From Chlorokybus atmophyticus (lineage: Eukaryota > Plantae > Mesostigma and Chlorokybus algae): DNA of 64,000 nucleotides. The stretch is taken from contig RHPI01000277.1 of assembly GCA_009103225.1 (NCBI GenBank), positions 141,633 to 205,632 of the forward strand, read 5' to 3'. Every line of letters begins with the position of its first letter. Positions within the stretch are counted from its first letter, which is position 1. This document shows, in pieces, positions 4,244 to 59,200 of the stretch. The notes beneath the pieces were generated by a model. It saw nothing but the letters and a program-made list of their open reading frames with translations, made no database searches and was not told the DNA's origin. The position numbers and the translations under genes were made by a program.

Positions 4244-5764
<1,521 letters not shown>

Positions 5765-8434: not shown

Positions 8435-12157
<3,723 letters not shown>

Positions 12158-12802
12158 GCTTACAACCCGCCTCCCTCACACCCTACAGCTCCGCCTCCCA
12201 CTGTACATACCGGCGCGGCCACTGCCGCCGACACCACAACGCCGACACCACCACAAGCACCGCCGCCACCCGACACAACAGCTCCAAGCGTACGTGAAAT
12301 TGTTTTCCCTGTTACTGCCTCTACAATCAAGGATTCTCGAAACAAATGAGCAAAACCCGCAAACCGACAAGACCCTTTTCCCAACCTCGTTTACGTGTGC
12401 ACTGCAGCGACCTCGAAAACAAGTGCAAAGCTGGCACACAAAAAGCAGAACTTTCCAGAGTATGATCAGCGTTCAGCACGTTCAGTAAGCGAGATGAGCA
12501 CTGAACGCTGAGCTTGGCTCACCGGTTTCACAATGCATCAGGCAGAAGGTCGTTAGTGATCGGGAAGGTGAGATCTGGGTCTGTCCTGGGCGTGTGGATC
12601 CGGATGGTCGTGGTTAGGGCTTTGTTAGTGCAAACCCTAAACTGGGCGGTGGCATTGGCGGGGTGGTCGTCGCGGTGGGTGTGGTCGTCGTCGTGAACGA
12701 CGTTGTATGTGGGAGTGGTTTTATCATCTGTGTACTTGACCTGCTTGTCACGGTTGTTCTTTTTTTGCCTTGGCGGCAGCGGGGCAGTAAACAGGCGCCG
12801 CG

Positions 12803-23039: not shown

Positions 23040-25251
<2,212 letters not shown>

Positions 25252-25418: not shown

Positions 25419-28175
25419 GTTCTGGTAACAAAGCGTTGCGGGGAGCGTGACTCCCTACCTACCGTGCCCGGCACTTGGGCCAACCTTTATTCTTTATTTC
25501 TTACACACAAGACAAGATATGTCTTAAGAAATAGAGAGAGTCAAGCAGAGTGTACAGCTGTGTATATAGGCTATGTATACAGGCTGATAGAGTATGTGAG
25601 GGCAGCTAGCAAGCTAGCTGTAGTCTAGGGCGGGTCCGGATGTGGAAGGGGTTCATTGAGAGGTAGAGGGAGCTGCAGCACGAGGGGGAGGAGGGAGAGA
25701 GTGCCAGGCAATTGAGGGAGAGGGGAGGAACCATGTGGGAGAACATATGAACGAGTTGTAGCCCCAGCTAGCCTTGAACTTAAGATATAGGTTCAAGCCT
25801 TTGTCTTCAGTGTTTACAGAGAAAAGTACCCGCAGCCAGTCTCCCTTGGCTATGGTGAGAATAGAATGTGAAAGAGAGTGAATACATGCTGCTGGGGAGG
25901 GTGTGGTGTGGTCGTAAAGGCAGCGATTACGGCAAAGCCAGATGTGCCAGAGTGCAAGTAGAATCAGGGTGTGATGTAGTCCTCGAGCTTGAGGAGGGGA
26001 GGAAGGAGGGATGAGAAGAAGAGAGCGTAGCGAGAGGGGGAGGGGAGCACCGCCCAGACCAACCCACACCTGCGAGAACCACCTCCATACTGATGAGCTG
26101 AAGGGGCAACTCACAAAGAGGTGGGAGGGGGACTCGACCTCCTGCTGGGAGTACATGACACAAAGCCCTGCGGTCATGTGAAAGCGAAATAGCCTGTCAC
26201 CGGTGTATAATGCTCGGTGAGCAAGCAGCCAGGCAAAGCACTTGGGCCAACCGTGAGCGTGGCCGCCGCTTCACGTTCGACGCAGTGTCCCCGTAAAAAG
26301 CCGGGCAGCATGACAGTTACATTGGCGGGTAAGTGTCTCCACATGCATGGAGAGCCAAGGACAGGACAACAGCGTTTAGTACTGGAGCAGCAGCAGCCAG
26401 CCTCTTGCACACTACAGAGCTGCCAATGTGGTGGACTCGGTGCTGTCATACAGGATGCTCGGCCAACCAGAGATGATCCGGGGGGTCATGCTGCTGGCAC
26501 TCCAGGTATGCTTGTTGCTCTACATGTGTATGTGCGCGCCTACAGCGGGCTGCTGCTGGTTTTTCATGTGAGATCCTTCCTGCTCTTCTTCACAGGTCTT
26601 GGTTTCTTCTGGGAGAGGCGTGCTGAGCATGTCATACATGGAGGTGTACAATGAAGTGCTTCACGACCTGTTGTTACCTCAAACAGCTGGTAGCGCCCTC
26701 TCCCTCCGCGAAGACCCCGTACAGGTGTGAGTGCACACTTGCCTACACACACGCATAAACACATGCACACGGTCGCGCATGCACACACCGCTGGTTGTTG
26801 AGAAACGTAAGCTGCGCAGATGCAGGCATGCATGAACACGCATACACGCACACGCACGCACCGTGCTGACTCGCACGATGCTTTGCAGCGCTTGATGCTG
26901 GCGGGGTTGACACAACACGGCATGGAGTCCGTGCAGGAGGTGATGGCGCTTCTTCATTCAGGTAACAGCCGTCGTACAAAGGAGCCCACCAAGGCGAACC
27001 GCACCTCGTCGCGTTCGCATGCGATTCTGCAGGTAAGCCAAGAAGTTCTTTGGTGGAGAGCTTGCATTGATTGTTGTTGTTTGGGTGTTGTGCATGTGCT
27101 GAACAAGCATTGTGCAGACCTTGGTTGAGACCAGACATGACGAGGGGCGCATGGCTTATTGCAAGCTGTCGCTTATAGATCTGGCTGGCTGAACGTTCGG
27201 CTGCCACGGATCGGGTAAGTGTCTTGGGTCAGTTGCCCTTTCACTACCTGTTCAATTTGACATACATGCGCGCACACACGCACGTACACATGCACGCACA
27301 CGCGCGAAGCATGCGCACGCATGCACACAGAGGCACATGTTACTCTGCACATCGAGTTGGTTGCATCAACAGTAAGAGCAGCTTGACGGTTGAATCGCTC
27401 TGCTCATGGTAGCACACGCTTCAATCAGTGGGAGGAGCAAGCATCAACAATTTTTTTTTTATCACTGAGCGGCTGCAACCACGCCCTTGTCCACGGCAAG
27501 AAGCTTATACCTTTTCGCAACTCCAAGCTCACGCGGGTGCACATACTATGCGCAAAGCAAAACACGCCGCATGTAACAGAAAAGAAACATGCATGCCATT
27601 ATATTGTGTTGGCAGTTGCTGAAGGACTCCCTTGTTCGAGGCTGCAGAACCGCCATGACTGCTTGCGTAACCCCAAGCCATACCGTGTTGGGTGAAACCA
27701 ACAAAATGTGTCACTGGGCTCAATCAGCCAAGCAAATGCGCTCACTGGTACCCACGCAACAGAATTGTTGTGCATGTCATGTACGCAATCTGCACCTGTG
27801 CATAGAGTGTTGTGTTGCGCAGGCGGCGGATGCGCAAGTGGTGGACACGCTGATGCCACAAGCGCCGGCGAGTGCTGCCACGCTGGCGGAGCTTATAGCG
27901 GAGAACAACCGGCTACGCACGCAGCTGTCGGCGATGTTGGTGAATAAAAATAACGCCAGCAACAGCGATGAGGGCACGCCGGGCAAGCGCAAAGGCTCGA
28001 ACCTCTCCACGCAAAGCGCAAAGCGGGTCTCACTAGGAGCTCCGACTGTGGTACGGCCGCAAGTGTTACCTATCTGGGTAAGATGTTGCAGGCACAGATA
28101 TGGCACACACACTCATCGCCATTAGTAGGTACCACTGCAAGAGGCCTCTTGACGGGTTTGCCGAAGCCCAGCAGG
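25419..28175 (+). pseudogene. Kinesin-8 (plant KIN8A/KIF18-like) pseudogene
   Basis: Exons encode RGRRFTFDAV, AANVVDSVLS, MLG...GVMLLALQ, SMSYMEVYNEVLHDLL...LREDP, GNSRRTKEPTKANRTSSRSHAILQ, KLSLIDLAG/ER, GASIN/LSLSGCNHALVHGKKLIPFRNSKLTR, LLKDSL...GETNKMCHWAQSAKQMR, and a coiled coil. The P-loop is absent, there are frameshifts at ~27190 and ~27455, and a LINE sits in a coding exon. Ends approximate. Confidence 0.88.
25486..26237 (-). mobile_element. 5'-truncated L1-clade LINE (zf-RVT C-terminus + 3' UTR) with 15-bp TSD
   Basis: FAWLLAHRALYTGDRL...LCVMY...ESPSHLFVSCPFSSSVW...LWHIWLCRNRCLY (zf-RVT). A-rich 3' end AAGAAATAAAGAATAAA. Direct repeat GCACTTGGGCCAACC at 25471-25485 and 26238-26252. 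Confidence 0.92.
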
Positions 28176-33402: not shown

Positions 33403-33866
33403 CATTCAAGCATGGATATACGCATCGTGAGTGTTTCTACCTCGTGAGCCACATGATCGCTGCATAAGGAGTTTTATGTGCGGGTAAAATCACGCATATT
33501 CTAGTGCTATAGATGTGGTGGCATACATTGTCAAATATAATCAATCATATGCAATTCCGTCGCTAACGGTAATTGCCTCTCTCGCCAACATTAGCGATGT
33601 TGAAGTCAGCAAGTGAAGCCATTCTCCTTTACAGTAGCAATCGGCACATTTGCGGGAGGTATTGGCCAAATTGCAAATGATTAGTGATTAACTGTCAAGC
33701 ATTTTAGCCACTTTCTCGATGACTTCATTATCGTGCAAACAATTTACGTTGTTGCAAAACAGGTCTATTACCATAACACAGTGCATGTTAGAAGTGAAGG
33801 CTTGCACCATCAGCGCCGCAACAAGTAGGCACTATCGTGGAATATGTGTTGCCTAGGCACTTAAAC

Positions 33867-36800
33867 TGTGACGGTGCTCGTGCCTTGACACCTGTGAGTT
33901 GGTCCCATCAGCAACCCTCTCACCAAGACACGGTATTCACCCCGGAACCTTGCCCCCTCTGCCAAGCACACGCGCGCCCCGCCACTCGCGTACGCGCCAC
34001 GCGCATGCGCTCGAAGCTACACACCGACTTGTGTAGCGCCTTGAATCGTCTTACAAGCAAGCACACACCAGTGGACACACGCTAGCAACCCCTGCTAACC
34101 ACCACCAGGCTTGCACACGAAACTAGGGAGCTAAAGGTTGTATTGCATAAAGTGAAATGTCCTTTTTATACCTATCAGTCTACACATGCTACTATCCAAA
34201 CGTTTCTCGAGCTAAATGGAACCAAAAGCTAAGATATTCTTGTAGAACCTTGTAGTACACTTTTAGACCTTTTATAAGGAACTCCTCAAGAGATGCCCAT
34301 TTGGCAAAGTTATACTATTTGGCGCCAGGCCCTTCCAGAAATCTGGTTGAGTACTTCTCGATTGGCCCTCCGTTTTCTGCGGTCTTTTAGACCGGTCTTG
34401 GGGCCGGTCGATATCTGCAGCAGACTCACAACTCACCGACATCCGCCACAAGTCGTGAAAACATGTTACTTGACAAATAAGGCCAAAAAGGTCATGAAAT
34501 CATGATATTTGACATCGACTGTTACACTCCTCCCCCCCTAGGTGAGCTTTGACCTCGAAGCTTGCGAGGTTGTCCTAATCGTCGTTGCAGGTACGCTTGC
34601 AAACTTGTTGTGCATTCGCCAGGTGCTCCTCCGGTTCCAAGTGGCCTCATGCATAGGGTAGCCCTTCCACTTCACCAAGTATTTGCGCACGTTTCGCACC
34701 AGTTTCTCCCCCACAATGTCCTCCACGTCATATTCCACATGATTTTCTATAGCCAACTCCGGCGGTGGACGCAATGGTGGTTCTCCTTGATTTGGTTTCA
34801 GCAGGGATATATGAAAGACAGGGTGGATGTGCATAGTCTCAAGTAGTTGCAACTTGTACGCGACGTCCGAGATCACCTTGATGACTTTAAGTGGTTTAAA
34901 CCAGCATTTACTTAACTTGCAAACTCCAGCACGTACCTGCAAGTTCTTCGCAGAAAGCAATATCAAGTTACACCAAATTACGTTATCAAATGTAACGTGC
35001 CGGCAATGTGCGTCTGCGTACTGCTTCTGCCTGTTTTGCGCCATTAACAAAGCTTCTCTAGCTGCTTTATTGATGTCAGCACATGTCTTCAAGAAGTCAC
35101 CCCCCGCCTCAACATGCACATCTCCGTGTGGTACCCATGCTGTGGCAACGGCGTCAATGGATGCTGACCATAATTCATCAAGAAGGGGGTAACGCCGGTG
35201 CTTGCATTCTTGTGATTTTTCATTGCAAATTCCGCCACTTTGAGTAACTCCGCCCAATTATCTTGTTGCGTTTTTATGTAGCATCGTAGCATGTCTTCAA
35301 CCACGCGATCTGCACGCTCCGTTTGGCAGTCCATTTGCGGATGGAATGACGTGCTGAACTTTAATGCAGTGCATAACGCACTTTGCAGCGCCTCCCCAAA
35401 CTTACTTGTGAATCTTGGGTCGATCCGTCACGATACACCTTGGTAAGCCATGTGAGCGAAAGACATGCTTCAAAAACAATCGTGATGCCTCCGCTGCAAT
35501 GCAATCCTTGCGACATGGAGCTAAGCGCACCATTTTACTTGTTTTGTCCACGAACACCAGTGTTGCTTCATACCCGTCTCGTGTCTTTGGTAGTCCAACA
35601 ATAAAGTCCATAGTGACTTGCTCCTACTTGCATAATGGTATTTGTAGCAATTGAAGTAGCCCACCTGGCTTCTGGTTACTCGCCTTCACTCTTTGACAAG
35701 TGTCGCACAAGGCTACATAGTCGCACACGTCTCTATGCATCTCCCGCCAATAACAACGATGCTTCAAGCTTGCCAATGTCCTCTCTAGTCCTTGGTGTCC
35801 AGCAATGGGGACATCATGCGCTTCATGTATCAAACGTACCCTCATATGTTGAATGTTACGGATGTACATGCGCCCGTGGTGCCAAAGAAGTCCGTCCTTC
35901 ATTGCCCAGTGATCGGTTGCATTCGGACCCTTTTCGCTCAACTCTTGCATTTTGCATCTTCCTTCCACAGCTTCATGTAACACGCCCCGTATTTGGTCTA
36001 CCCACTCAGGCTGCACTTGCGCGAGCACCTCCATCGCATTCACTCGACACAATGCATCGGCCACACTATTGGACGTACCGGGCTTGTACTTGATGTCAAA
36101 GTCGAAAAGCTAAAAGAATCCCAACCAACGTGCTTATTTTAGACTTAAATGAAGCTGTATTTGTAAGTACCTCAATGGAGAATGATCCGTCTCAAGCACA
36201 AACTTCTTGCCTTTTAAGAAACAACGCCATTGTCGTAGTGCCATTACTTGCGCCAAGAGCTCCTTCTCCTGCACGGGGTAGTTTAGCTCCGCATCATTTT
36301 CTTGCTAGAGAACGCCACTCGTTGAAGGCCGTTGCCGTGGTCTTGCTGCAAAACAGCTCCTATAGTTGTGTCGGACGCGTCGTTAGCCATAACGAAGGGC
36401 TTTTGCATGTCAGGGTGAACCAAGACTGGTGCCTTTCTTAATGCCTGCTTTAACGTCAAAAATGCACGCTCTTTGCTTGCAGACCAGCTCCAAGGCTTTC
36501 CTTTCTTGAGAAGGGTGGTTAAGGATGCCGCGACATGCGAAAAATCCTCTAATGAACTTGCGATAAAAGCTAGCAAGGCCCAAAAATGACATCACCTCTT
36601 TTACATTGGTCGGGGCTGGCCAATCACGCATCGCTTGAACCTTGCTTGGGTCAAGCTGCATTCCCTCACGCGACACAATATGGCCAAGGTAAACCACCTC
36701 TTCAAGCAAGACCTTGCACTTCTCCAACTGAGCATACAACTTATGCTCCTTTAAACGCTGCAACACGCACCGTAGAAGTTGTATGTGCTCCTGTTTTGTC

Positions 36801-39800
36801 TTCGAAAACACTAAAATGTCGTCGATGAAGATGAGCACTCCCTTGCCAATCAAGTCAGCAAAGACTCCGTTCAGGCTTTAAAAAGTCGTTAGTGCGTCAA
36901 TAAGGCCAAAAGACATCACCACCAAGTCGTAGTGCCGTAACGTGTATTAATCGCAGTCTTTTCCACGTCCTCCGGTGCAATGCGGATCTGATGATTACCC
37001 CCGCAAGATCAAGTGTTGTAAAGTATTGCGCATCTTGTAGCTGCTCCAGCAACACAACAATTCGCGGTAGTGGAAAGCAATTCTTTTTGGTAATGTTGTT
37101 GAGAGCGCACATACATGCGCAGTCACCGTTCTTCTTCCTCACGAACAAGATAGGCGCACCATATAGCGACTTACAAGGCTGAATGTAGCCGCGCTTGAGC
37201 AAGTTCGCCACTTGTCGCTCCGCCTCTTCATGCTCCAAAGGTGACAACTTGTATACAGGCTGGTACGGTGGCTTGTGTACGCCCTTAAAAGCTCGATTAC
37301 ATGGTCTACATCTTTTGGAGGTGGTAGACCGGGTGGTAGCCCGTCCACCATGATGTCCTTGAACTTTTTCAAGAGTTCACGCACCTCGGGGTCTGATGTA
37401 GCCTCCGCATTACTAGCGGTCTGATGTGCTGTCTTGATCGCTTTCTTACGCACCACGCACAACCATGCATCTTTCGACTTTCGTGGGGATAGCAACTTTT
37501 TTAACTTCGCGTATGACTCTTGAGGAATTGCAGACATACCGGGCTGTTTACCTCTTCTGGAGTCCACTCCCGCAATGCTTGCATTTCCCTTTGCCGTGAT
37601 CGCCATGCGTCGTCCCGACGTAGCGGCACAACCGCCGATGCCGTCATCGCTGGGGTGGTCTTCAACTTCAATGGGGCAATCGCGTAAGCCATGTATGGTC
37701 TCTCCACGGATGGTGAGCACGTGTCGCCTCCAATCAATGCTTGTATTGTGTTTATGTAGCCACGGTAGACGCAAAACTCCATCGAACCCGTTCTTCAATG
37801 TGATGCAGCAAATGCACATACGCTCACTCACTGGACCAATGCGTACTTGCAACTCTTTGATCATGAATGACATTCCTTCAGCCCCGAAAAGGTTTTCTTC
37901 CATCAACGAGCCTTACTTCTCCTCCACGCAACGGCAAGAGCCATCAAAATCGCCGTGCAACAACTTCCGTCATGAAGTTGCTATTTGCTCCACTATAAAT
38001 CATCAACTTGCACTCTCTCCATCTTCCTCCACCGTCTCGAATGCGTGCTCGGACTCCTAAGTACTTTCGTGCTTCTTCACTAGCATAACTTACCACCGTT
38101 GGAGTATACATTGGTACCATGCCTCCGTGGCCATGAGTCTTCTCGCTTAAGCAACGTGTTGGACAGTCCGGGCATGCCTGAGGCTTCCCATCCTCAGTAG
38201 TAGCCTCTGCACCTACTGAGGGCAATCGTTTCCCTGCCGCACGCCTTTTTGCTCCATCACGTTCACGCTGTTGCGACGTATGTCTCGACCAGGCGCATCT
38301 CCTCGCGCTCTCCTTGGACAGTTGAAGGCTTTATATTCGGTAGAGTCACACACGTAACACTTACGCACAGCACCAGCTAAACGCCGCTCAGTAGACCTTC
38401 TCATACCCTTGCGCGCATTGATCGCACCCACCTCCATTGGTGTAGGTCTCGAGCTAGCCCCATGCTCATATGTGGGTGTAAAAGCCAACTCTCTGCCCCT
38501 CCAAGCACGCGCTCCGGTACCAGCTGTGACGGTGCTCGTGCCTTGTCACATGTGGGTTGGTCCAATCAACAACCCTCTCACTAAGACACGCTATTTACAC
38601 CAGAACCTTGCCCCCTCTGCCAAGCACATGCAAAGCCTTCTCGTGCCTGGTTGCTTGGCCCGCGTTGACGGTCACGCCTCCAATCAAAGTTTGATGTTGT
38701 TGTCTTGAAATACAACGCATCCAGGCGCTTCGCAATGTGTATCGCCTCTGCTAGCGTTTTGGGTCACGGAGCTCCACTTCCTTACGACAATAAAGCTTTA
38801 AACCACAGGTGTACCTGTCCAGCTGCTCCTCCTCGGTCATGTTGGGAATGGACATCACCAAACGCTGCAACGCAGCTGTGTACGCCATCACCGACTTGGT
38901 TTGCGTAAACGTTGCAAGTTGATCGCGCGCGGCCTTCACGCTTTCCACGGGAACAAATTGATGCCTGACCTCTGCTGTCAACTCTTGTAGACAATAGCGC
39001 CGCCAATCCACTTGTAACACGTGTACACCGATGCCTCCACCATACAAGCGCAGTCCTTCAAGCAACGTTGCCGCCACCTCTACATGTAGATGCGCGGGCA
39101 CCTCCGTAAGCTTCAGCCAAGAAGGCATTTTAAAGCCCCATTCATTTACTGCATCTCCATCTCATTGAGCCCTGAATAGCTTTGGCTTTGGCACCTTTAC
39201 ATGCACGCGCGAGCTCGACACCATGGGAACTTGTGCATGCGCCATCGCACGCTCGTACGCCTTTGTGCTTGTGCAGCCGCTTGCATGTAATAAAGCTCTT
39301 CTCGCAGTGCTAGGATTGCACCTTAAAGCTTCTTCACACGGACATCCTCCATCTCCACCAATACACTACACTCCGCTCTTAAAGTAAAAGTGTAAACGCT
39401 CACACTTCCTCTCTCTCACCTTAGTAAACCGAGCTCTGATACGAGTTGTGACGGTGCTCGTGCCTTGTCATTTGTTAGTTGGTCCAATCAACAACCCTCT
39501 CACCAAAACACGGTATTCACACCGGAACCTTGCCCCCTCTGTCAAGCACACACGCGCGCCACTCGTACGCGCCACGCGCATGCGCTCGAAGCTACACACC
39601 GACTTGTGTAGCGCCTTGAATCCTCTTACAAGCAAGCACACACCAGTGGACACACGCTAGCAACCCCTGCTAACCACCACCAGGCTTGCACACAAGAAAC
39701 TAGGGAGCTAAAGGTTGTATTGCACAAAGTAAAATGTCCTTTTTATACCTACCAGTCTGCACATGCTACTATCCAGATGTTTCTCGAGCTAGACGAAACC

Positions 39801-40102
39801 AAAAGCTAAGACATTCTTGTAGAATTTTGTAGTACACTTTTAGACCTTTCATAAGGAACTCCTCAAAAGATGCCCATTTGGCAAAGTTATACTTTTGGCG
39901 CCAGGCCCTTTCAGAAATCTGGTTGAGTACTTCTCCACTGGCCCTCCGTTTTTTGGCGTCTTTTAGACTGATCCTAGGGCTGGTCGATATCTGCGGCACA
40001 CTCACAACTCACCGACATCCGCCACAAGTCATGAAAACATGTCACTTGACAAATACGGCCAAAAAGGTCATGAAATCATAAAATTTGACATTGACTACTA
40101 CA
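33867..40102 (-). mobile_element. Ty3/Gypsy chromovirus-type LTR retrotransposon, near full length, degenerate
   Basis: LTRs at 39447-40102 and 33867-34526 (TG...CA). PBS-like TCGTATCAGAGCTC (39444-39431, tRNA-iMet type with one mismatch). PPT GGGGGGGAGGAG (34538-34527). Order is gag (EEEQLDRYTCGLK; degenerate CCHC), PR (LMIYSGANSNFM), RT (YGAPILFVRKKNG; FIDDILVFS), RNaseH (NDASDTTIGAVLQQ), IN (HDVPIAGHQG..CDTCQR; MDFIVGLPKT), chromodomain (EYDVEDIV..YLVKWKGYP..EATW). Many stops and frameshifts. Confidence 0.96.
38525..38628 (-). repeat. 104-bp LTR 3'-end fragment inside gag
   Basis: TGTGACGGTGCTCGTGCCTTG...CCCCCTCTGCCAAGCACA matches the LTR end at 33867 and 39447. Confidence 0.9.
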
Positions 40103-40345
40103 CTTGGGGTGGAGGTTAAGGTTAAGGTCGAAGTTAAGATTGAGATTGAGGTTGATGCTGAAGAAGGAACTTGAATTTGGATAGAGTGAGGATGAAGGTG
40201 GGTTGAGATTGATGTTAAGGTCGTGAGGTTGAGCTGAGGGTTGCGGTTGGCTCAACTTGGAGTTGGGGTTGAAAATTGAGGTTAGGGTTGGGGTTGAATT
40301 GAAAGTTGGGGCTAAGGTTATGGTTGAAGGTCGAAGTTTCAATTC
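40103..40345. repeat. Degenerate GGTTGA/GGTTAA hexamer satellite (reverse complement of 42316-43020)
   Basis: Runs such as ggttgagattgaggttgatg and ggttagggttggggttg. Confidence 0.8.
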
Positions 40346-40426: not shown

Positions 40427-42315
40427 TGTAACAGTCGACGTCATATTTTATGATTTTATGGCCTTCTATGCCTTATTTGTCAAGGATCATGTTTTCATAA
40501 CTTGCGGCGGATGTCGGTGATTGTGAGTCTGCCGTAAATATCAACCGGCTTATGGATCGGTCTAGGAAACGCCAGAAAACGGAGGGCCTGTCGAGAAGGA
40601 CTCGACCAGATTTCTGGAAGGGCCTGGCGCTAAATAGTATAAATTTAGCCATATGGGCATCTTTTAAGAAGCTCCATGACGCGAGGATTGCACTGCACCG
40701 GAGGCAGCACGATTGTTTTTAAAGCATGACTTTCGCTCGCATGGCTTACTGAAGAGCATCGTAACGGATCGCGACCCAAGATTCACAAGTAAGTTTGGGG
40801 AGGCGCTGCACAGTGCGTTAGGCACTACATTAAAGTTCAGCACGTTATTCCATCCGCAAACGGATGGCCAAACGGAGCGCGCAAATTGCGCGATTGAAGA
40901 CATGCTGCGATGCTACGTGAACGCACGACAAGTTAATTGGGCGGAATTACTGAAAATGGCGAAATTCGCAACACCTACAAGAATGCAATGCACCGACGTT
41001 ACCCCCTTCCTAATGAATTACGGTCAGCATCATTGACGCCATTGCCACAGCATTGGTACCACACATAGATGTGCATGTCGAAGCAGCGGGTGACTTCTTG
41101 AAGACATGTGCTGACATCACCAAAGCGGCTAGAGAAGCTTTGTTAATGGCGCAAAATAGGTTGAAGCAGTACGCAGACGCACATTGCCGGCACATTACAT
41201 TTGATAACGTGACATGGTGTAACTTGGTATTGCTTTCTGCAAAGAACTTGCAGGTACATGGTGCAAGTTAAGTGAACGCTGGCTTGGACCATTTAAAGTC
41301 ATCAAGGTGATCTCGGACGTCGCGTACAAGTTGCAACTACCTGAGACTATGCACATCCACGCTGTCTTTCATATATCCATGCTGAAACCATATCGAGGAG
41401 AACCACCATTGCGTCCACCTGAGTTGGCTACAGAAAATCATGTGGAATATGACGTGGAGGACATTGTGGGGGAGAAACTGGTGCGAAACGTGCGCAAATA
41501 CTTAATGAAGTGGAAGGGCTACCCTATGCATGAGGCCACTTGGAACCGGAGGAGCACCTGGCGAATGCACAACAAGTTTGCAAGCGTACCTGCAACGACG
41601 ATAAGGACAACCTCGCGAGCTTCGAGGTCAAAGCTCACCTAGGGGGGGAGGAGTGTAACAGTCGACGTCAAATATCATGATTTCATGACCTTTTAGGCCT
41701 TATTTGTCAAGTAACATGTTTTCACGACTTGTGGCGGATGTCGGTGAGTTGTGAGTCTGCTGCAGATATCGGCTGGCCCCAGAACCGGTCTAGAAGACGC
41801 CAGAAAACGGAAGGCCAGTCGAGAAGTGCTCAACCAGATTTCTGGGCCTGGCGCCAAATAGTAATAACTTTGCTAAATGGGCAGTATTTTGAGGAGTTCC
41901 TTGGTGCGTAGGAAAGGTCTAAAGGTGTACTACAAGGTTCTACAAGAATATCTTAGCTTCTGATTCCATTTAGCTCGAGCAACGTCTGGACAGTAGCATG
42001 TGCAGAGTGGTAGGTACAAAAAGAACATTTCACTTTGTGCAATACAACCTTTAGCTCCCTAGTTTGTGTGCAAGCCTGGTGGTGGTTAGCAGGGGTTGCT
42101 AGCGCGTGTCCACTAGCGTGTGCTTGCTTGTGCGACGATCCAAGGCGCTACGCAATTCGGTGTGTAGCTTCGAGCGCATGCGCGTGCGTACGCGAGTGGC
42201 GGGGCGCGCGTGTGTGCTTGGCAGAGGGGGCAAGGTTCCGGTGTGAATACCGTATTTGGTGAGAAGGATGTTGACTGGACTAACTCACATGTGTCAAGGC
42301 ACGAGCACCGTCACA
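40427..42315 (+). mobile_element. Internally deleted copy of the same Ty3/Gypsy chromovirus family
   Basis: Partial 5' LTR 40427-~40675 fused directly to the integrase core (FLKHDFRSHGLLKSIVTDRDPRF..QTDGQTERAN), then chromodomain, PPT GGGGGGGAGGAG (41642-41653) and a full 3' LTR at 41654-42315. Confidence 0.95.
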
Positions 42316-43020
42316 CCAACCTTAAACCGAATATCACCCTCATCGACAGACACTTAACAACAACCTCAACCCACCCTTACCCTCGCTCCAGCGTAACTTA
42401 GATCTCTAGCCCTAACCCTAACCCCAATCCTATTTAAATTCAACTCAAAACACTTTAATAAGCACGCTCATTGTTTCATCCCAACGTAAATCTTAACCCC
42501 AAACTCAACTTCTACCTCAACTTCAAAACCAACCCTTACTGAGGTGGCACCCTCATTGCCAGAATTAAAGTTAACATTAACATCAACCCATCCTTAACCT
42601 CACTCTAATAAAACCCATTATAAACATAAAACACCTTGGTAAGCATGCTCAATGTTTCAACCCAACCCGAATCTCAACCCTAAACGCAACTACAACCTCA
42701 ACCTCCAACCCAACCCTTTTTGAGGTGGCAACCTCATTATCAAAAAATAAACATTAACCTCAACCCACCCTCGACCTCGCACCATCCAAACCCAAAATAA
42801 ACATAAAACACCTCAATAAGCACGTTCAATATTTAATCCCAACCTTAATGTCAACCTCAGACTTAAGCTTCAACCTCAGCCTTAACCTTAACCCTCACCC
42901 CAACCTCAAACCCAACCCTCACCCTCACCCTCAATAGCATCATCGTCCTTACACTCTTTCTAACCATTAAATTGAACTTTGTTTCAATCCTCACGTAACC
43001 TTAACCTTAACCTAAATCTG
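42316..43020. repeat. Telomere-like degenerate hexamer (CTCAAC/CTTAAC/CCTAAC) satellite with ~180-bp higher-order period
   Basis: Anchor AAAACAC(T/C)T..TAAGCA(C/T)G(C/T)TCA recurs at 42447, 42628 and 42805. TGAGGTGGCA.CCTCATT recurs near 42540 and 42720. Confidence 0.8.
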
Positions 43021-48782: not shown

Positions 48783-49909
48783 CCTGCTCTTTTGGCACTG
48801 GTGCTTCTGCTCTCAGATGTGGTCAACACAACGTGCGCACCCTCCTGTCTTGTCCGACAATGCATTTGGTCGGAGCAGCACAGAGACAAAGTGCACGGCA
48901 CATGTGTGCGCGCTCAACAACGTGCGTGTGCAAGCGCTTGTGGGTGTGGGTGTCTGCACATGCGTGCATGCGTGTCAGTGGGTGGGGGTGCGGTGAGGTG
49001 CACCGTGCGTGCATGCGTGCGCTTGTGCGTCCTGTAAAAAATGTACTTACTTAAGAGAAAGAAAGAGAGCTCCGGGTCAGCGCAAGGCAAAGGAGCCGAG
49101 CTGAAGCGGAAAGCAAGCCTGCAGCAGCAAACAATGCGATATGATTGGTGGTGGGACAGAACATACACAGGGACACAATAAACATCATAACAAGATCACG
49201 CTCATGAAAGGCAAAGCCGTTTGTCTTAAACCTATTATTCAACGATTGCACACCATTCGACATGTGCTAAACCATCGTTACTATCAGCATCAACAGCATG
49301 CTCAATGTCTACCCGCACCCCTTTGAGTAACTTCAGCTTTACTCGCGCATTGCCACCCTACAAGCCTTACTGCTGCCGCTGTTGCTGCGCTGTGCACACT
49401 ATGTGCATTTCATGCGGGTGCACTCTGTCAGAATGAGCCGTTAAGTTGCACGATTGAAATCAGGTGAATTCAGTTTCAAGAGTGATTGTCACCAACAGTT
49501 TTGCATGTGCGTGCACGGATGCAAAGAAAGAGTTAAGTTAAAACATGGCTCAAGCTAGCTGTATTGTGTGTGCACATTCTACCACCGTTGTGTGCTTAGC
49601 ATACTAGCTATCCATGAAGCTCAACACACAACAAAGAAAAACAACACACTGATAACGTCCATCGACGCCTCTCCCCCAGCAAGCACCCATTCAACCTATC
49701 TATCTCACAGGCTATGTGCGCTGACTGCTACTGCTCCATCGTAAGCCGACATGCACAAGACTCCAGGACTCAGCACATGCATACCTGTATCGCGTGATGG
49801 CAAGTAGGGACAGCAGGTGTCAGCCTTAATCGGCAGGAGGAGGCAGGCGGCAGCGACAAAAACATCAACGACGCCGCCACCTCCTCCCAATTGTTTCCCG
49901 CCCTGACAG

Positions 49910-50325
49910 GTCAACTGGTCAACCGTTTGCCACCCTCGCAAACAGGGAGGCCTTGGCATACACGACCCAAGCTGGCAACGACAGCATTGCTTGCCAAGTG
50001 GGCGGCCAGACTTTTGGACCCTTCATGAGCGGCCTGGAAAGTCCTTGGCCACAGACCTTGACTGGCTGGGCAGCGAGTCTCTCCCCTCACCATGCCGCCC
50101 TCCTAACTCTCACCCCGCCCCTTGTCTAGTTCGCTGGGTGCCTACCGGGGCAGCTCTCCTCTCTTCCCCGGCGCAACCGACGAAGCGCTTGCCAGGTCAC
50201 TGGCAGCGCATTTTTCGGGCATGGATAACAGTCCGACCCTCCCTCCCCCGTGAGCCGGACACCTATGACTCTGTCCTTCGCCAGCATATCTTCCTCAATC
50301 CCTATCTCATGGACCGGGAGGGAGA
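49910..50325 (+). mobile_element. L1-clade LINE ORF2 fragment (region C-terminal to RT)
   Basis: VNWSTVCHPRKQGGLGIHDP/LATTALLAKWAARLL...HWQRIFRAW...LRQHIFLNPYL; frameshifted. Confidence 0.8.
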
Positions 50326-51099
50326 CGCGAACGTGCAGGATATGCGATGCATGAAATTGTGACATGCACGAGAGTGTGACACATGCCATGCAAGAAGCTG
50401 ATCACACCAATGACTTACTTTCACATGACGCGCAACAACTCATTGCCAAAGTCCTTGCATGCATTCCTGCACCGCATAAAACTCTTTGCTACAAATGAAC
50501 ATACTATACGTCTGCCAATGGTTCAACCAAGTTGAACAAGATGTGCGTTGTGAGTTTGGATTTTTCAACGCTTCCAATACAGTAGTGCACAATCATACAC
50601 TAGCACGTGAGCATGCGCATTTGTGCACTACTGTGCCAGTGGCGGTGGTCTGCGCGCCGGAATGTAACGGATATGTGCTGAAGGAAGGTGTGAGTGATGA
50701 GATGAGAGGCTCAACTGACTGCCCAGACATGCACTCTGATGACTGTGTGTCTGCGCGCCTGCGCACACGTTTGTGCGTGCGTGCATGTTTGTTGTGTGCT
50801 TAGGCCTACCGGCTTGGCCTTTGACGGTTAAGTAGCAGTGGCGTTGAGGCCCTCAGTGCGTGGGTGCATGCCAATGTGCTGCAAGTTGCATGTGCGCGTG
50901 CGTGCCTGACTTTGTACATACAATGCGCGTGGCATATGCTCATGTGCATGTGTGCTTACGCGTAGCCTTCAAGGACAGTAGTAGCGGTGGCGTTGCTGCC
51001 GTCAGTGCCTCAGTCATCGCCACTACCCAGTTTGCTATGATGATGCAGAAGCCGGCGTCGCTGTGGCCAGCAACGCAGACACCACTTCACAACCGTTCC

Positions 51100-52140: not shown

Positions 52141-53299
52141 CCCACCCAGCGTCTCGAGTGAGCACATTCAACTGCATGCATGCATGCATTCTGCATGCAT
52201 TCATCACGTGCGTGAGAGCTTCCGTTCTGCTACCATCTGCGCCGTACCGCGGCGCTGCTAATGTTGACGTTAGCGCCGTAAACGTTAGAACTGCCGCAAT
52301 AACCATCGCTCAGTGGAGCTCAGTGGCTCAACTTGTAAGCTTAGTGGCTCAACTGCGGCAGCTGCTTGCGGAGTGCTACTGTTGTTGTTGTTGTTGTTGT
52401 TGTTATTGTCCATCCCATGGAGGCTGAGCTGTGTGTGGGTCTCCGCCTCCCTGCATGGTCATCCTCACTTCGCCGCTGATCAGCACCCTGGTGGAGACAG
52501 CGTGCAAAGCGCTTGGTGAAGGTGGAGTTCAGTCGTGATGGTCACACATGCAGCCTGCATGCACCACTTGAATTTGCGCTTCAGTCACTGTGTGCGGCGC
52601 CTACTCAAATTGAGTCAACTATTGTGGCTGTGTTGCAGGGCTGTGTTGCAGCATGTCCCCCAAAAGGCAACACGAGGTAAAATCTTTTTCTCACCAAATA
52701 CAGCAAATCACACAGGCAACCTCATCACGATGATGAGAGGGTGAGCGCTGCCCGTGACGGTTACTCGCACACGTTGGTGGTAATGTTGAGAGGTCTTGAG
52801 GTGAATATGCGGTGGATAGGAGCGAGGTGAATGAAGGTGTCATATGATGGTGGGAGTACATGCTTACGGGGATCTGTCATCGGCCATTCTGAGGAGAGCA
52901 CCATGTTGAGAAGTGCGTGCGTGTGTGCACCTGCGCGTGAGTGTGTGTGTACAAAAATGAACCGGCTCGGTGTTCACCAGCTCGACGTCCATCTGGTACA
53001 CTGAACATGTACCCAGTTCCTTCACATTGAAGCTGAATTGGCTCCTCCACTTGTTAAGGAGAGCCTCCAGCTCTTCTCATATGTCCTCCGTGACAAGAGG
53101 GCCAAGGGCGTGGTTCTAAGATGTTGCGTTGGCAACCACGGGTATGTCTTCCACTGTCACGGCTGCTTGCTCCTCCATGTGAGCCACCTCGAGGGCTGTG
53201 TGAGCTGCCTTGGTGTCTGCAATGCGATCAGCCCACCCCCTAGCCAGGTGTTTGACATCCTCGAAAGACACATGGCGGTCCTGCATAGCGAAGCTCAGC

Positions 53300-54260
53300 T
53301 CCAGCAACCAGACCATGCTGTTTTGGTCCATGGCGCGGTCGAACAGCTGACATTGCTGACCATTGGTCAGCGGGGACCCTGTGATACCGTTGGGAAAGAA
53401 CCCCATGGCGCGTTTGTGCTCACGTGCGTTGGGTTCTTCTAGCCTGCACGTTGTGGTGTTGAACACGCATCACCGTTATTGCGGAAGGCATATGACTCTG
53501 GGTTGAACACCAAAGTGAGAATTGCGCGGCGCGGTTGGCCAGGTTGGTTGCATTGGTAGAAGTGGCTATAGTCAAGACGTGTGACTGGTTGAGCTCTGCG
53601 GTTGGGGTCGAGGATGTCATCGACCAAGAGGTTGCGTGGCCGCGTACTCCGTGTGTTATCTGCTGTCATCAGCTCTTCTGTGGTGGCCAAGTTTGACCAC
53701 TTGACGCGGACGCGATGTGCACGGGAGCCTTGGCGCGCTGCGTTTAACTTAAATGGGTGCCCAAGAATGGAGCACACCTGTTGGTAGGTGGAGGCTACAT
53801 GGGGACGCTGGTCGTCCTCTGAGTGCACGTTTTCGACGACGTACCTTTGTGGCCTAGAGAACTGATGCTGTTGGAGGAGGTGGATCTCATCAACTCCCAA
53901 AACAGACCTGAGCGAGGGTCGTCAAGGCCTTGGCCTTTTCCTGCTCTGGAGAGTCCTTGGCACTCCCATCTAGCTATCAACAAGTCGATGTCGCCGAGGG
54001 GCAGCAAGTGGTCCTTTTTGGTCAGTCGGATATCTTGTGGCAAGGCTTGGATGCTGCCTTGCAGTGCCGACGAGGGCAGCTGCTGTGGATAGCGCTCGTG
54101 CTGCTGACGGACAGATGGTGCTTAAGGGCTGTTGAAGCGCGCGGATCAAGGTCGCAATAATAATACTTGGTGACTTTGACGCCTGTGGTGAGGACTGCAG
54201 CGAGACCACTGCCAATACCTCTGAACAGTTTTAACAACGTGATGCCTTGCTGTCGTTGAA
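53300..54260 (-). pseudogene. C5 cytosine DNA methyltransferase domain within the retrotransposon pol
   Basis: Motifs in canonical order across three frameshifts: I (ITLLKLFRGIGSG), II (YYYCDLD), III (LPQDI), IV (DLLIARWECQGLSRAG..GLDDPRSGLFWEL), VI (YVVENV), VIII (NAARQGSRAHRVRVKW), TRD (TLVFNPESYAFR), IX (EPNAREHKRAMGF) and X (QLFDRAMD). Confidence 0.9.
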
Positions 54261-56135
54261 AGGTATGAAACTCCACGACTCCGGTGGCTACCATGTGGTC
54301 TTGCACTGTGCCGTGTCCTTTATAGTGGTGGAAGCGAAGTGATCAGCGGCTGGGTCAGCAAGAGGTGCGCGTCCACCTGTGCCCGCCAGCGGCGTTCGGC
54401 CGGGTCTTGTGATGCCGCCTCTACCATGGCATCCTCCTGCTCCTCGGTGTAAGGAATGGAAGTGGCGTTGTCTGTGCAGCAAGGGGCTGCGGCGACGGCA
54501 GCAACTCTTGTGCGGGTGCTGTCATACGTGGCTGTTGCCGCCTCCCGTGTGCGCTCGTAATTGCGCGTGGCTGTGGCAGCCACTTTGCATTGGGCACGCG
54601 TGTGTGACACCAACTCAAAAGGCAGGAAGCCCTATACCTCTCCGTCATCTTCATCCCAATGTGGTCGGAACCACGCCCGCTCCGTACAGTAGTCAAGGCC
54701 CATACCCACGGGAAGTTGAAGTCCTGCCCAACAAGGAAATCGAAGGAGCCAGCGTTAGTGACCACACAGTGCTGAACGATCTCTGTGGTGTGGGTCGGGT
54801 CCAGCCCTGTCAACCAAACGCAGATGGCCTCTTTAGTGACCCCCATCACCTTGTCACGGCTCCCCATTGCTGTGTTCAATATGTATGGGCAGGGCATCAG
54901 CTTTGAATTGGTGATGCCAAGGGACCGCGCGAGGAAGCGCCCAATGATGACTAGCTGTGCTCCGGTGTCCAGCATTTCCCGCTTGGGCGCCTAACCATTA
55001 ATGGTCACATGCTTGCCTTGGTTGGCCACCATGGCAGCGTTGGCGTTCATGCGTAGTATCTTGGTGCGGGTTGTCGGCACCGTTGCCTCATGTCTTTCAG
55101 CTGGAGGTGCTGAGCGCATTGCAGCCAAAGCTCCTCTGCCTGCTGGGCCTTGACTACCCCCTCGTTGTTCTCTCCCTCTGCCAAATCGACCTTGTCGCGG
55201 TGGTTGGTAGACACGGGGAGGCCTTTGCGCTAACGGTTCTGGCGCTGGCTGTGAAGGTGATGGTGGATGCAGCCTTTGAGATGATGAAATCATGTCTGCC
55301 GGCGTCCCGAATGGCTGTGGAGGGAAGCCCGGCAGACCCGGTGTTTGCGGGCCTGCCTCGCATTCTACTTGCTCTGCGGCGTAGGTCCATCGGACAGCAT
55401 GAGCTGCCTCCATGACTACTGTCCCTTCTCACGTGGTTGTGGGCTCGGTGTCCACAACCGTCAAGTGGTGATATTGTGGCATGGGCTGCAGGTATATTGC
55501 GCGCAATGACTGCTGCCGCATGTCGTGAGTGATGGTGGGGACTCGCAAGATCTCTGCCATCGGTCGGGTGCGTCCTGCAGCCTGGCGTGCAACGCCTGAA
55601 ACATCTGAGTTGCCAGCTCCAACACAGCGGGGCGCCGGTATGCGACCCTGAAGAGACGATCTTTCATTTCATGAGCAGTGCCAGCTAGAATCTCATCTCT
55701 AACTGTTATTGAGTGGGCTCCGATAGTGTATGGTATTCACGCGGTGGCAGCGGCAGGATGCGATCATCTTGCACTACGTGCGTTGCGCGTTGCCCCCCAG
55801 GCCCGTACGTAATGGTGGGCTTGATGTTGCGTAGGGCGGACTCCCAAGCGCGCTCTGCTTGCGGTCCGCGTGGCACTTGCTGAGTGACATCAGGGTGCGG
55901 AGGAGGGGCCGCACGAACCCCAGATGGCGCGGCGGCAGTGGCAGCAATGGCTAACAGAGGTGCAGCAACATCATTTGCAGCAACAGTTGTGGCACCTGCA
56001 ACAATGATGGCGACGGAGGTCGCCGCTATGAGCGTTGCAGCCATTGTGATCGGGGCAGTGTCCGCAGTCGTAGCGAGTGTGGTGCTAACACCACCAGTGG
56101 GTATGCCAGCCATGGCTGCAGCAGCCTCAATGTCG

Positions 56136-56215
56136 GTCATCTCTGGCGCCAGTGTGGTGTTGGGTGTATCCGCGCTGGCGGATACACCCAATGCCACATT
56201 GGCGCCAGAGATGAC
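56136..56215. repeat. 80-nt inverted repeat (38-bp stem, 4-nt loop)
   Basis: GTCATCTCTGGCGCCAGTGTGGTGTTGGGTGTATCCGC-GCTG-GCGGATACACCCAATGCCACATTGGCGCCAGAGATGAC; three mismatches, all G-T type on the + strand. Confidence 0.93.
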
Positions 56216-59200
56216 TGGGACTGGCGGCACATGTGGGTGTTGTCGTCGGCGGTGTTGTCGACAGGGTCGTCCCAGCAAGGGTTGTGGCCACCGAGCCAGC
56301 TCCACTTGTGGCTTCCAACGACGCTGCTGTTGACGATGCGCCTGCCTCTCTGCGCGCACGTCTCGATGGTTAAACACGCGATGCAGGGGGGGAGTCTCTT
56401 TCGCGTTTATATGCCATTAAGGCCCATCGGGCAGCGTAGCAGGCTTGGTAGTTTTGCTCTTTGTTTTTTTCCAGCTGGGCCACTCGTACCATGAGGGCCG
56501 CGACTTGGTCGATAATTAATGAACCAGGTGATGCTTTGACAGCAGCAGCTCCGACGCGAGGGCGTTCATCGGGTCCCTTGCGCTGTGGAGGGCGATTCTC
56601 TGTGGCCAGTCTCCTCTTTTCGAGCGCCGGTGATTGCTGTTGGGGTTGTGGCCACCAGTGTTGTTGCCGTTGTTGTTACCACCAGCGTCGTTGCTGTTGT
56701 TGTAGCCACCAGCACTGCTATTGTTGTAGCCCCCGCTGTTATTGTTGTTATTGTTGTTGTTGCTGCAATAGTTTCCAGCGTTGTTGCTGTTGTTGTAGCC
56801 AATAGAGGGCCGTAGCTCGGGGAACTTGAGCCAGCATACTGCCTCTGAGTGTCCCACCTTGTGGCAGTAGTCGCACACAAGGTTGCCGTAATTTGCGGTG
56901 CACTTCTTTTTGTAGTGCCCATGTCGACCACGCTGATGGCACAACACTGGAGCAACAAGCGCAGCATAAGCTGACCATTTATGCTTGTTGCGCGTGACTT
57001 GAGCATCTTGACTGCGTTTTCGTCGAGGGGGCTCAGCACTCGCGCTTGCCATGGGACGTGAGGCGCTTTAGTTGGTGTCCAACACCGCCTTCTCATACAC
57101 CGCGCGCTTGTGAATGGCTTGTGCAGTCTCGAAAGCTTCTTTGAGGGTGTAGCCGAGGGGCCTACTATAGTTCAGTGTCAAACGCATCGACTCACTCAAG
57201 GTGGGGTCCAACTCAGCCACGTACACCACTGCAGCTGCCTCCTCACTGGCGATCTTGTAATCAGTATTCCTTCCAGCCGCGTATACAACCGGAGAGGGTC
57301 CTCATTGGGCCTCCGTAAAAGCGTCTCAACTCCTCTACGGTGATGGTGGTCTGGGGCGGGAAGGTACGCCGCAGTGCTGCGTACAAGTCCTTGAGAGGAG
57401 AGTTCGACATAAAAGCACCAACGGTGATGGCTGGTGCGCGCAACGCCACCGAGCCAAGTGTGAAAGGCTGAGGCTCCTGCCGGAGTATGCGAGCCCGGTA
57501 TTGGCGGTACTGGCGTCCCCGTTTTCAAGGCTGCAGATTGTTGTTCAGCCTGTTGAGCCTCGATGATGGCAGCGGCGCGGTTAAGCACTCTGGTCCGTCG
57601 GTTGGCCTTCTTGACCTCGACCTTTGCAGGTGTTAGCGAGGCAACAACCAGCTCGTCTTCGTCCTTTGCTTGTTGCATGGCTAGGGCCAACGCCCGCCCA
57701 GTGACTCGGGTTGGAGGGACCACTGCTGCTAAGGCAGCAGCTGCTGGGCTATATGTCGGTGCAGGTCCTATGGTGCTGGCAAGCTCGCCATAGCCATCGA
57801 CTCTGTGCAGCTCAATGGACTTCCACACATCGTGTGCCTCATGTTCAAGGTACTGCACCCTGATAAGGAATGACACCTCATCTGACCAGTCCTTGTTTTG
57901 GAGGGCTTGCTACCGCAACTTGGATAGGAACTTGATGATGAAGTCATCAAGTGGTGTGGTGCCCGCACGTCCGAAAAAGCGCAGGGAGTTGGTTGAGCTG
58001 GAGGGCTCCATTTCTTCGTCGTCACTGTCCGAAGGAGGTGGAAAAGCTTAATGGCAAGGAGTGAAGTGGGAGGAGCTGAAGCCGGAGACGGGGCGTGAGC
58101 CTCTGCTGCTACGGTAACTGCTTCCTTCACTTACTCGTTCGTAGGTGAGGTTGGAGATCGGGCTCCAGCTGCTAAGGTCCCCCTCGTCTGTTGGCGAGAA
58201 CAGGGTGGGCCTGCGCATACAGCTGATGCGAAGATGAAAGTGTATGAAGGATAGAGTGTTTGTGCTCTACACGGTTATGTAATGTTATCTAATGCCGCTA
58301 CCACTCACCGCACTAGTGCTTGTGCGCTCTATGTGATAATAGTGACAATGATGCACGAAGATGTATGCTACTGCAGGTTGCTCTGGTGTGCAGGATGCAA
58401 CCATACTCACTTGAGCAAAGAGGGTGACACTGTGAGTCAACAAGCCACTACTATAGGTCGTGCTCTTTACACAGTTCTTTGAGTGAGTGGAAAATGTGTT
58501 ACACTGTTAAGTGAGGTGAATGAGTAAGCAACACGTGGATGCTATGCTCCGACTGATGCCAACAAGCACATCGCGACCCAGCGTACTAAGCTCACAGCAA
58601 CGACAAGCACGGTGCACACGAGCATGCACACACTCTCACACGGTGAGGGGATTCTTAGTAACCAGGACGGCGTGTTTGTAGTTCACGTTGCTTCACAAGC
58701 TCCTAGCTTTCTCTCTTATAGTGTCACCAGCTGATCCGATGACCACCGCGACTACTTATACAAGTCAAATCATGACTGTTCAGAACACAAGCTAACGGTC
58801 ATATCAGGGCTATTCCCACTTGAAACTCTCCCTCGATATAAAACATAACGCGTAACTAAATTCACATCTGAGACAGCTACGAGTGGTGCCTATGTGGGCT
58901 ACGGCCATGAGCTAGTCCAAGGTCATGATCTACCTACTGGTCTATGACGTGCATGGGTTGGTATGCTGATAGTCTGGGCGAGGGTCTTGATGTAAGCATG
59001 CCACAGGTGCAGGTTGGCACACGACGACAATGGGCATGACATCTCGCAACATCTTCAGCCTTAGTGTTGCCAACAAACGCTTCATGGGGTGACCGTCCCA
59101 GTGTGAATGAGGCTGGTGGCGACAGCCAGGGGACCGCTTGAGGTGAGGTTGGTCATGATTCTGACACGCGCCCTGCATGACCACACCGCTTGTGCTTGTA

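What the first reader, a model, noticed from the sequence alone, without database searches (positions are those of the whole stretch)
52955..57900. Retrotransposon encoding its own C5 cytosine DNA methyltransferase between protease and RT
Seen: on the minus strand, gag with CCHC knuckles and an LDTGA aspartic protease run into a domain with the C5-MTase motifs in order: FxGxG-like LFRGIG, D-x-D, DI, catalytic xCQ as WECQGLS, ENV, GSRAHRxR, ExxRAMGF and RAMD. This continues into the Ty3 pre-RT linker (FSFNVKELG..MDVEL...EPV), where the element is cut off. Established, recalled from memory: Ty3/Gypsy elements carrying DNMT domains were reported in charophyte algae (de Mendoza et al. 2018, Nat Commun). 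The class is therefore probably known, but this family or host may not be. Inference: the element may methylate its own cDNA or new insertions. This copy is dead (three frameshifts in the MTase, motif substitutions, no RT/RH/IN).
Basis: partly seen in the sequence, partly recalled or inferred. Interest (0 to 1): 0.85.

Follow-up and report, generated by a model that had tools for sequence, protein, structure and literature searches.

The report
Dead algal retrotransposon carrying DNMT3-type methylase
This is a broken, cut-off copy of a repeated jumping gene in the early-branching green alga Chlorokybus whose protein chain carries a DNMT3-like DNA methylase between protease and reverse transcriptase, likely used by intact copies to methylate their own new DNA, a design already described in the alga Klebsormidium.

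Summary
Confirmed. On the minus strand (about 58218-52961) lie gag with zinc knuckles, a protease, a C5 methyltransferase (Pfam PF00145, E 2.6e-8) and the Ty3 pre-RT linker, then a truncation. A neighbouring HSP70 exon is identical to a Chlorokybus gene model, which fixes the host. Diverged copies in two sequencing runs lack two of this copy's frameshifts and continue towards RT, so the domain belongs to a repeat family. The closest named relatives are Klebsormidium and Closterium polyproteins with the same order, and family profiles match DNMT3 best. This is a new member of KnitGypsy-Dnmt3 (de Mendoza 2018). 'WECQ' is the family's usual motif, not decay. Beyond print as far as my searches show: the family has at least 169 clusters at 50% identity and two layouts. 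One is PR-DNMT-RT (streptophyte algae); the other is RT-RH-DNMT-IN-PHD (Scenedesmus, Haematococcus). The layouts separate in both DNMT and RT trees, with catalytic residues nearly invariant. Methylation of the element's own cDNA is inferred; the one Gypsy enzyme tested in yeast showed no activity, which the authors call inconclusive. This scan noted the same kind of element earlier in moss genomes.

The parts
58219..58920 (-). Repeated non-coding block upstream of gag; likely 5' LTR and leader (ends, PBS and TSD not located)
   Evidence: Summed contig depth 127-347 in bins 57871-58923 of runs X1 and X2, falling to about 4-5 in the next bin; no second copy in the window and no clear PBS
56516..58218 (-). 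gag, broken by stops and frame changes; two zinc knuckles at about 56950-56834, the first degenerate
   Evidence: tblastn to Closterium P0147 (E 1e-4) and P0288 (E 1.9e-4)
55114..56515 (-). Low-complexity Gag-protease spacer (Ala/Pro/Gln-rich), part of the repeat
   Evidence: covered by diverged contigs; no Pfam hit at E<0.07
54709..55113 (-). Aspartic protease (LDTGA), with a stop at 54993 and a frameshift at about 54709
   Evidence: Pfam Asp_protease_2 E 1.2e-4; matches to P0142, P0140, P0197 and Klebsormidium P0007
54256..54708 (-). Protease-DNMT linker, with a stop at 54634 and a frameshift near 54320
   Evidence: P0142 match continues to 54605; diverged contigs tile across it (tables 5 and 8)
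53287..54255 (-). DNMT3-like C5 cytosine methyltransferase, motifs I-X, in four pieces (frameshifts at about 54110, 53884 and 53468); catalytic Cys, ENV Glu and motif VIII Args intact
   Evidence: PF00145 E 2.6e-8; family profiles best match DNMT3A/B/C; conservation table
52961..53286 (-). Linker and Ty3/Gypsy pre-RT segment (FSFNVKELG...EPV), stops at 53118 and 53079; element truncated at 52961 against a CA-rich repeat
   Evidence: Aligns to the pre-RT region of P0166, P0282 and P0173; 3 contigs in each of X1 and X2 go on past 52961 in sequence absent here (table 7)

Best explanation
This is a dead, 3'-truncated copy of a multi-copy Ty3/Gypsy retrotransposon family of Chlorokybus whose Gag-Pol carries a DNMT3-like cytosine methyltransferase between protease and RT, and in intact copies that enzyme likely methylates the element's own newly made cDNA. 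Shown: the domain order, the host, multiple diverged copies, DNMT3 as best structural match, and near-invariant catalytic residues across 201 relatives. Inferred: the protease releases the DNMT (alone or attached to RT) inside the particle. It is thus made in step with RT and integrase and meets the unmethylated cDNA first, putting methyl groups on CG before or at integration. The new copy would then resemble the CG-methylated, expressed gene bodies of such algae rather than foreign unmethylated DNA. Odds: identity and family about 0.95; catalysis selected in intact copies about 0.8; own cDNA as substrate about 0.55.
For: Pfam hit. The only organism-named hit among 7 is Klebsormidium KFL_009030040 with PR-DNMT-RT-RH-IN. 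Closterium proteins have the same order. PDB ranking for profile A3: DNMT3A 7e-25, DRM-type 3e-15 to 2e-10, M.HhaI 2e-10, DNMT2 about 1e-5 (the same order for A1). Among 24 layout-A and 177 layout-B domains, Cys is kept in 200 of 201, the motif VI Glu in 201 of 201 and both motif VIII Args in 200 of 201, although identities to the first row of alignment A3 are only 32-40%. Other copies lack the frameshifts at about 53884 and 54110 and run on past the truncation with a Ty3 pre-RT-type peptide (my hand translation; compare P0406). SymbioDIRS-Dnmt3 methylates CG de novo in yeast (PMC5890265 section 10). K. nitens has CG gene-body methylation that correlates with expression (section 9).
Against: KnitGypsy-Dnmt3, the nearest tested enzyme, gave no methylation in yeast (inconclusive per the authors). 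No intact Chlorokybus copy was seen: no genome is held and no contig spans the element. The DNMT3 assignment rests on profile scores, with no host DNMT3 or DRM in my trees. KnitGypsy-Dnmt3 copies carry the silencing marks CHG and CHH in K. nitens, so they do not escape host silencing in the long run. A chromodomain Gypsy copy in this window had no DNA_methylase hit in the pieces scanned, so the domain looks dispensable for retrotransposition.
Confidence: 0.6

Rival explanations
1. Self-restraint: the enzyme methylates new copies so that they are silenced at once, which limits damage to the host and lets the family persist.
For: Raised in PMC5890265 section 11. The enzyme and substrate are the same as in the best explanation, so every conservation result fits equally. 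Copies in K. nitens are silent and carry CHG/CHH methylation.
Against: CG methylation alone goes with expressed gene bodies in K. nitens. Many diverged copies exist in the host. The PHD finger in 141 of 181 layout-B proteins suggests chromatin targeting, but its specificity is unknown.
Confidence: 0.2
2. The domain acts on DNA other than its own, such as rival elements, giant-virus DNA or host promoters, or works mainly as a DNA-binding module.
For: An antiviral role is proposed in PMC6338049 (passages). No activity was seen in yeast.
Against: Its place inside Pol ties it to the particle. Catalytic and SAM-binding residues are nearly invariant, which argues against a binding-only role.
Confidence: 0.12
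3. The methyltransferase is a separate insertion or a captured host retrocopy in this one element, or the join is an assembly chimera.
For: No single contig spans protease to pre-RT, and several 6-7 nt matches flank the domain.
Against: Intact single-ORF CCHC-PR-DNMT-RT relatives exist (P0148, P0282, P0287). Diverged contigs tile both junctions (records 6, 7 and 9 and the joint at 54246-54339). The short matches look like chance, though I ran no control. In the DNMT tree the domain falls among elements of the same layout.
Confidence: 0.02
4. On origin: the Chlorokybus element arrived by horizontal transfer from another alga rather than by descent from an early streptophyte.
For: Retrotransposons move between hosts (general knowledge).
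Against: No close relative was found: the best identity is 43% over 291 columns, and the window joins neither the Klebsormidium nor the Closterium clades. This excludes only a recent transfer from sampled lineages.
Confidence: 0.25

Closest known systems
KnitGypsy-Dnmt3 of Klebsormidium nitens ('Gypsy-DNMT3' of streptophytes); de Mendoza et al. 2018, PMC5890265. Seen: abstract, sections 9-11, passages and a supplement term search; figures not seen.
   Same: Gypsy element with an intronless Dnmt3-like domain in the Pol ORF, in a streptophyte alga. K. nitens protein KFL_009030040 (PR-DNMT-RT-RH-IN) matches this copy's protease, DNMT and pre-RT segment. That this protein is a KnitGypsy-Dnmt3 copy is my inference from host and architecture.
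   Different: Different host class (Chlorokybophyceae) and a separate deep branch. It has WECQ/ENV where K. nitens P0007 has WPCQ/EHV. The DIRS-like repeat arrangement reported for KnitGypsy could not be tested. This copy is dead and lacks RT, RNase H and integrase.
SymbioDIRS-Dnmt3 of Symbiodinium (same paper)
   Same: Dnmt3-type domain in the Pol polyprotein, with two domain orders coexisting; shown to methylate CG in yeast.
   Different: A DIRS element with a tyrosine recombinase in dinoflagellates; an independent capture according to the paper. Not compared by sequence here.
EpiLTRs of Euglena and Cymbomonas (bioRxiv 10.64898/2026.05.21.726589). Seen: abstract, Results parts 1-2 of 3 and passages; supplements closed.
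   Same: Ty3/Gypsy LTR elements carrying a cytosine methyltransferase.
   Different: Their DNMT is sister to DNMT4 and comes with DAM and a chromodomain; the preprint calls it distinct from streptophyte Gypsy-DNMT3. No DAM was seen in what remains of this copy.

Membership tests
C5 cytosine methyltransferases (PF00145) | Motifs I-X in canonical order with catalytic Cys, ENV Glu and motif VIII Args | tested here: met
   the order is not permuted, so it is not DRM-type
DNMT3 clade | Closer to DNMT3 than to DRM, DNMT1, DNMT2 or bacterial enzymes | tested here: met
   Profiles A1 and A3 against PDB rank DNMT3 first by about nine orders of magnitude; shared AHR-x-R-x-x-W-x-NL segment. The window's short pieces alone hit M.HhaI weakly (E 0.005) or nothing relevant.
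DNMT3 clade | Groups with host DNMT3 in a tree that holds DNMT1/3/5, DRM and bacterial enzymes | not tested
   No tool returned host DNMT3 or DRM sequences as usable ids; the trees hold only element domains
Ty3/Gypsy LTR retrotransposons | Gag-PR-RT-RH-IN order | tested here: inconclusive
   Gag, protease and pre-RT are present and the rest is lost in this copy; the full order is seen in relatives P0007, P0148 and P0287
Ty3/Gypsy LTR retrotransposons | Paired LTRs, PBS, PPT and target-site duplication | tested here: inconclusive
   One repeated upstream block; no 3' end, no second copy and no clear PBS
KnitGypsy-Dnmt3 / Gypsy-DNMT3 | Intronless Dnmt3 domain inside Pol of a Gypsy element | tested here: met
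KnitGypsy-Dnmt3 / Gypsy-DNMT3 | Homology and shared layout with K. nitens elements | tested here: met
   on the layout-A side of a 99/96 branch
KnitGypsy-Dnmt3 / Gypsy-DNMT3 | DIRS-like arrangement of terminal repeats | not testable with these tools
   3' half missing; no genome held
KnitGypsy-Dnmt3 / Gypsy-DNMT3 | Purifying selection on the DNMT (Ka/Ks < 0.2) | tested here: inconclusive
   No Ka/Ks computed; residue conservation across 201 relatives is the indirect sign
EpiLTR | DAM + DNMT4-like domain + chromodomain | tested here: not met
   The DNMT is DNMT3-like; no DAM or chromodomain Pfam hit in the layout-A relatives scanned

The most novel reading that the evidence does not exclude
Gypsy-DNMT3 is not a Klebsormidium oddity but one very old retrotransposon lineage of the whole green line. 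It captured DNMT3 once, before or near the streptophyte-chlorophyte split, and has kept it catalytically intact in two positions of Pol: before RT in streptophyte algae down to Chlorokybus, and between RNase H and a PHD-tipped integrase in chlorophytes. Self-methylation of cDNA would then be a durable, widespread transposon strategy.
Probability: 0.4. Interest if true: 0.65.

Novelty: new member of a known kind. Interest (0 to 1): 0.42.

Why it matters
DNA methylation normally silences transposons, so an element that carries the enzyme inverts the usual logic, and what it does with it is still open. In the papers I read, the Gypsy case rests on one alga whose enzyme failed in yeast. This finding adds a host from one of the earliest streptophyte branches. 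Through the searches it also adds hundreds of natural, intact, diverged domains in two layouts, some in culturable algae (Closterium, Scenedesmus, Haematococcus), which makes the question easier to test. The copy itself is a fossil.

Tried and rejected
No genome is held, so intact copies and LTR pairs could not be sought. No RNA holder was listed, which says nothing on expression. Runs X3 and X4 had no cover over the element. The ESM Atlas did not answer. A viral-contig scan failed for lack of a conserved stretch. A test for CG/CHG-biased decay of this copy found 14 of 32 listed transitions in CG/CHG, no enrichment (p 0.48); it used only the rows printed, so it is weak. The scan for a PBS, TATA box or TSD was inconclusive. 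CpG observed/expected in the element (0.77) matches the window (0.78). Rejected: WECQ as decay; EpiLTR membership; DRM (motif order); a nested separate insertion. No structure prediction was run, because the profile match to DNMT3 was already clear. Earlier-finding look-ups by place and by sequence returned nothing.
Full report
Observation. The minus strand from about 58218 to 52961 reads, through many breaks, as gag, two zinc knuckles, a low-complexity spacer, an LDTGA protease, a C5 methyltransferase and a Ty3 pre-RT segment. Of 15 pieces scanned, Pfam names DNA_methylase on 53798-54121 (E 2.6e-8, above cut-off) and aspartyl protease on 54424-54990 (E 1.2e-4, just below cut-off). The methyltransferase lies in four frame segments. 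Two more frame changes separate it from the protease, and I count seven internal stops in the segments inventoried. The element ends abruptly at 52961 against a CA-rich repeat, and no 3' LTR or second copy exists in the window.

Host. An exon of the mitochondrial HSP70 gene at 8438-12160 is 100% identical over 98 aa to EukProt jgi/Chlat1/915; the next hits are at most 86% identical. That protein maps along the whole gene. Chlat1 is the JGI portal of Chlorokybus atmophyticus CCAC 0220 (reference list of PMC10739892). Chlorokybus is class Chlorokybophyceae in Streptophyta, treated as early-diverging in the title of PMC7027972.

It is a family, not one accident. In 2 of 4 runs laid, summed contig depth is 17-347 (X1) and 2-248 (X2) across 52957-58923, against 0-5 in the flanks apart from one microsatellite bin. 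Depth is not a copy number. Over 52800-55200, 100 of 149 (X1) and 41 of 62 (X2) laid contigs are under 90% alike. Some of them lack this copy's frameshifts near 53884 and 54110 and the one after the protease at 54709. Diverged contigs tile the protease-DNMT and DNMT-pre-RT junctions, but none spans everything. Three contigs in each run continue beyond 52961; by my hand translation they read P-V-x-R-R-Q-Y-x-L, like the pre-RT of relative P0406. One of the runs may be the source of the assembly.

Relatives. A search with the catalytic piece gave 7 hits among 102 candidates; the only organism-named hit is Klebsormidium nitens KFL_009030040. A profile of these hits and window pieces found 169 clusters at E<1e-30 among 1.84 billion representatives. 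With a further search (best 120 of 194 listed) I held 287 proteins: 32 with DNMT before RT or after protease (layout A), 181 with DNMT after RT/RNase H or before integrase (layout B), 69 with DNMT alone and 5 without. The ratio reflects my queries, not nature. A PHD finger follows in 141 of 181 B proteins and in none of the 6 A proteins that reach the integrase. Of 30 representatives looked up, those with an organism name were Closterium (7, layout A), Klebsormidium (1, A) and Scenedesmus sp. PABB004 (1, B). One search added Haematococcus lacustris (B). One B protein is labelled as a bacterial MAG, probably mis-binned (my inference). Layout-A proteins match the window colinearly from the knuckles to the pre-RT segment.

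Which methyltransferase. Family profiles rank DNMT3A/B/C first among solved structures (1e-15 for A1, 7e-25 for A3), then DRM-type, bacterial and DNMT2 enzymes. Across 201 domains the catalytic Cys (200), motif VI Glu (201) and motif VIII Args (200 each) are almost invariant. Glu before the Cys is the commonest state (127 of 201), so WECQ is normal for the family. This copy departs from the family at several otherwise conserved sites in motifs I, IV, VII-VIII, IX and X, consistent with decay.

Trees. In a DNMT tree of 41 rows, layouts A and B are split by a 99/96 branch. The rows were the window, 20 A and 20 B; 10 near-copies, most B rows and all unclassified rows were left out. The window is a deep A branch, at best 43% identical to anything and sister to neither Klebsormidium nor Closterium. 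An RT-RNase H tree of 8 A and 16 B rows shows the same split (97/99); A-B identity is 37%, against 26-28% to the window's decayed chromodomain Gypsy. This congruence fits one capture followed by a move within Pol. The trees have no proper root and no DNMT-less near relatives, so transfer of the domain between two related element lineages is not excluded.

Mechanism. Shown: architecture, multiplicity, DNMT3 likeness and conserved catalytic residues. Inferred from the general Ty3/Gypsy life cycle (my knowledge) and from PMC5890265: a domain inside Gag-Pol is packaged with RT and integrase and meets the new cDNA first. I put self-methylation of cDNA at CG first (about 0.55), with camouflage in a CG-methylated genome as its likely benefit. 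Immediate self-silencing, action on other DNA and a binding-only role are the rivals. Against: the K. nitens enzyme was inactive in yeast (as was human DNMT3B in the same assay), while two SymbioDIRS enzymes methylated CG.

What is known. de Mendoza et al. 2018 describe KnitGypsy-Dnmt3 in K. nitens only, in the sections I read. A 2026 preprint refers to 'streptophytes (Gypsy-DNMT3)' without naming Chlorokybus, Scenedesmus or Haematococcus in its main text. PMC12344493 mentions retrotransposon DNMT3 in streptophytes and dinoflagellates (passages; its one text supplement had no hit). PMC6338049 states broadly that DAM- and DCM-encoding Gypsy and DIRS elements occur in green algae and charophytes, without separating them (passages); this weakens any claim that chlorophyte cases are wholly unreported. 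The Chlorokybus genome paper's main text has no occurrence of 'methyltransferase' or 'Gypsy' (supplements not searched). Searches for Chlorokybus + DNMT3 + retrotransposon and for PHD + LTR + green alga + integrase + methyltransferase found 0 papers. Searches returned only the two papers above, and the listings showed no further paper on such elements by title or abstract start. Subscription journals, Repbase, figures and preprint supplements were not visible and may hold these elements. Earlier notes of this scan describe the same kind of element in moss genomes, one with a PHD-tipped integrase.

Verdict. A real feature, correctly read: a new member of a known kind in a new host, itself a fossil. 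Interest 0.42, carried by the breadth of the family and its two layouts rather than by this copy.

Noticed in passing
window 8438-12160 (-): Intron-containing mitochondrial HSP70 gene matching Chlorokybus model Chlat1/915; used to fix the host.
   Followed up: yes
window about 33830-40100 (-): Decayed chromodomain Ty3/Gypsy element (gag, RT, integrase, SH3, chromo) with direct repeats at about 33980-34530 and 39555-40104 that look like paired LTRs; no DNA_methylase hit in the pieces scanned.
   Followed up: partly
window about 40430-42320 (+): Inverted partial copy of the same chromovirus 3' end (integrase C-terminus, chromo, LTR), 86-96% complementary to 33870-35520.
   Followed up: no
window 25656-26270 (-) and 49907-50359 (+): LINE-like remnants: zf-RVT hit at E 6e-11 on the first; the second only resembles a LINE RT C-terminal segment by eye, with no Pfam hit.
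   Followed up: no
window about 4900-5500 and 24300-25100: Very long (AG)n tracts, each with a single N, probably assembly joins.
   Followed up: no
proteins P0170, P0290 (Scenedesmus sp. PABB004), P0226, P0357 (Haematococcus lacustris) and many unnamed ones: Large sister group with RT-RNase H-DNMT3-like-(G-patch)-integrase-PHD; Pfam often misses the DNMT.
   Followed up: partly
proteins P0142 and P0197: Long ORFs (1775 and 2159 aa) with protease and DNMT but no RT, RNase H or integrase hit; P0197 runs about 500 aa beyond the DNMT. They may be split-ORF or non-autonomous forms.
   Followed up: no
L001:8911-9882: Unrelated bacterial-type C5 methylase beside an adenosylhomocysteinase-like gene (labels by eye).
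   Followed up: no
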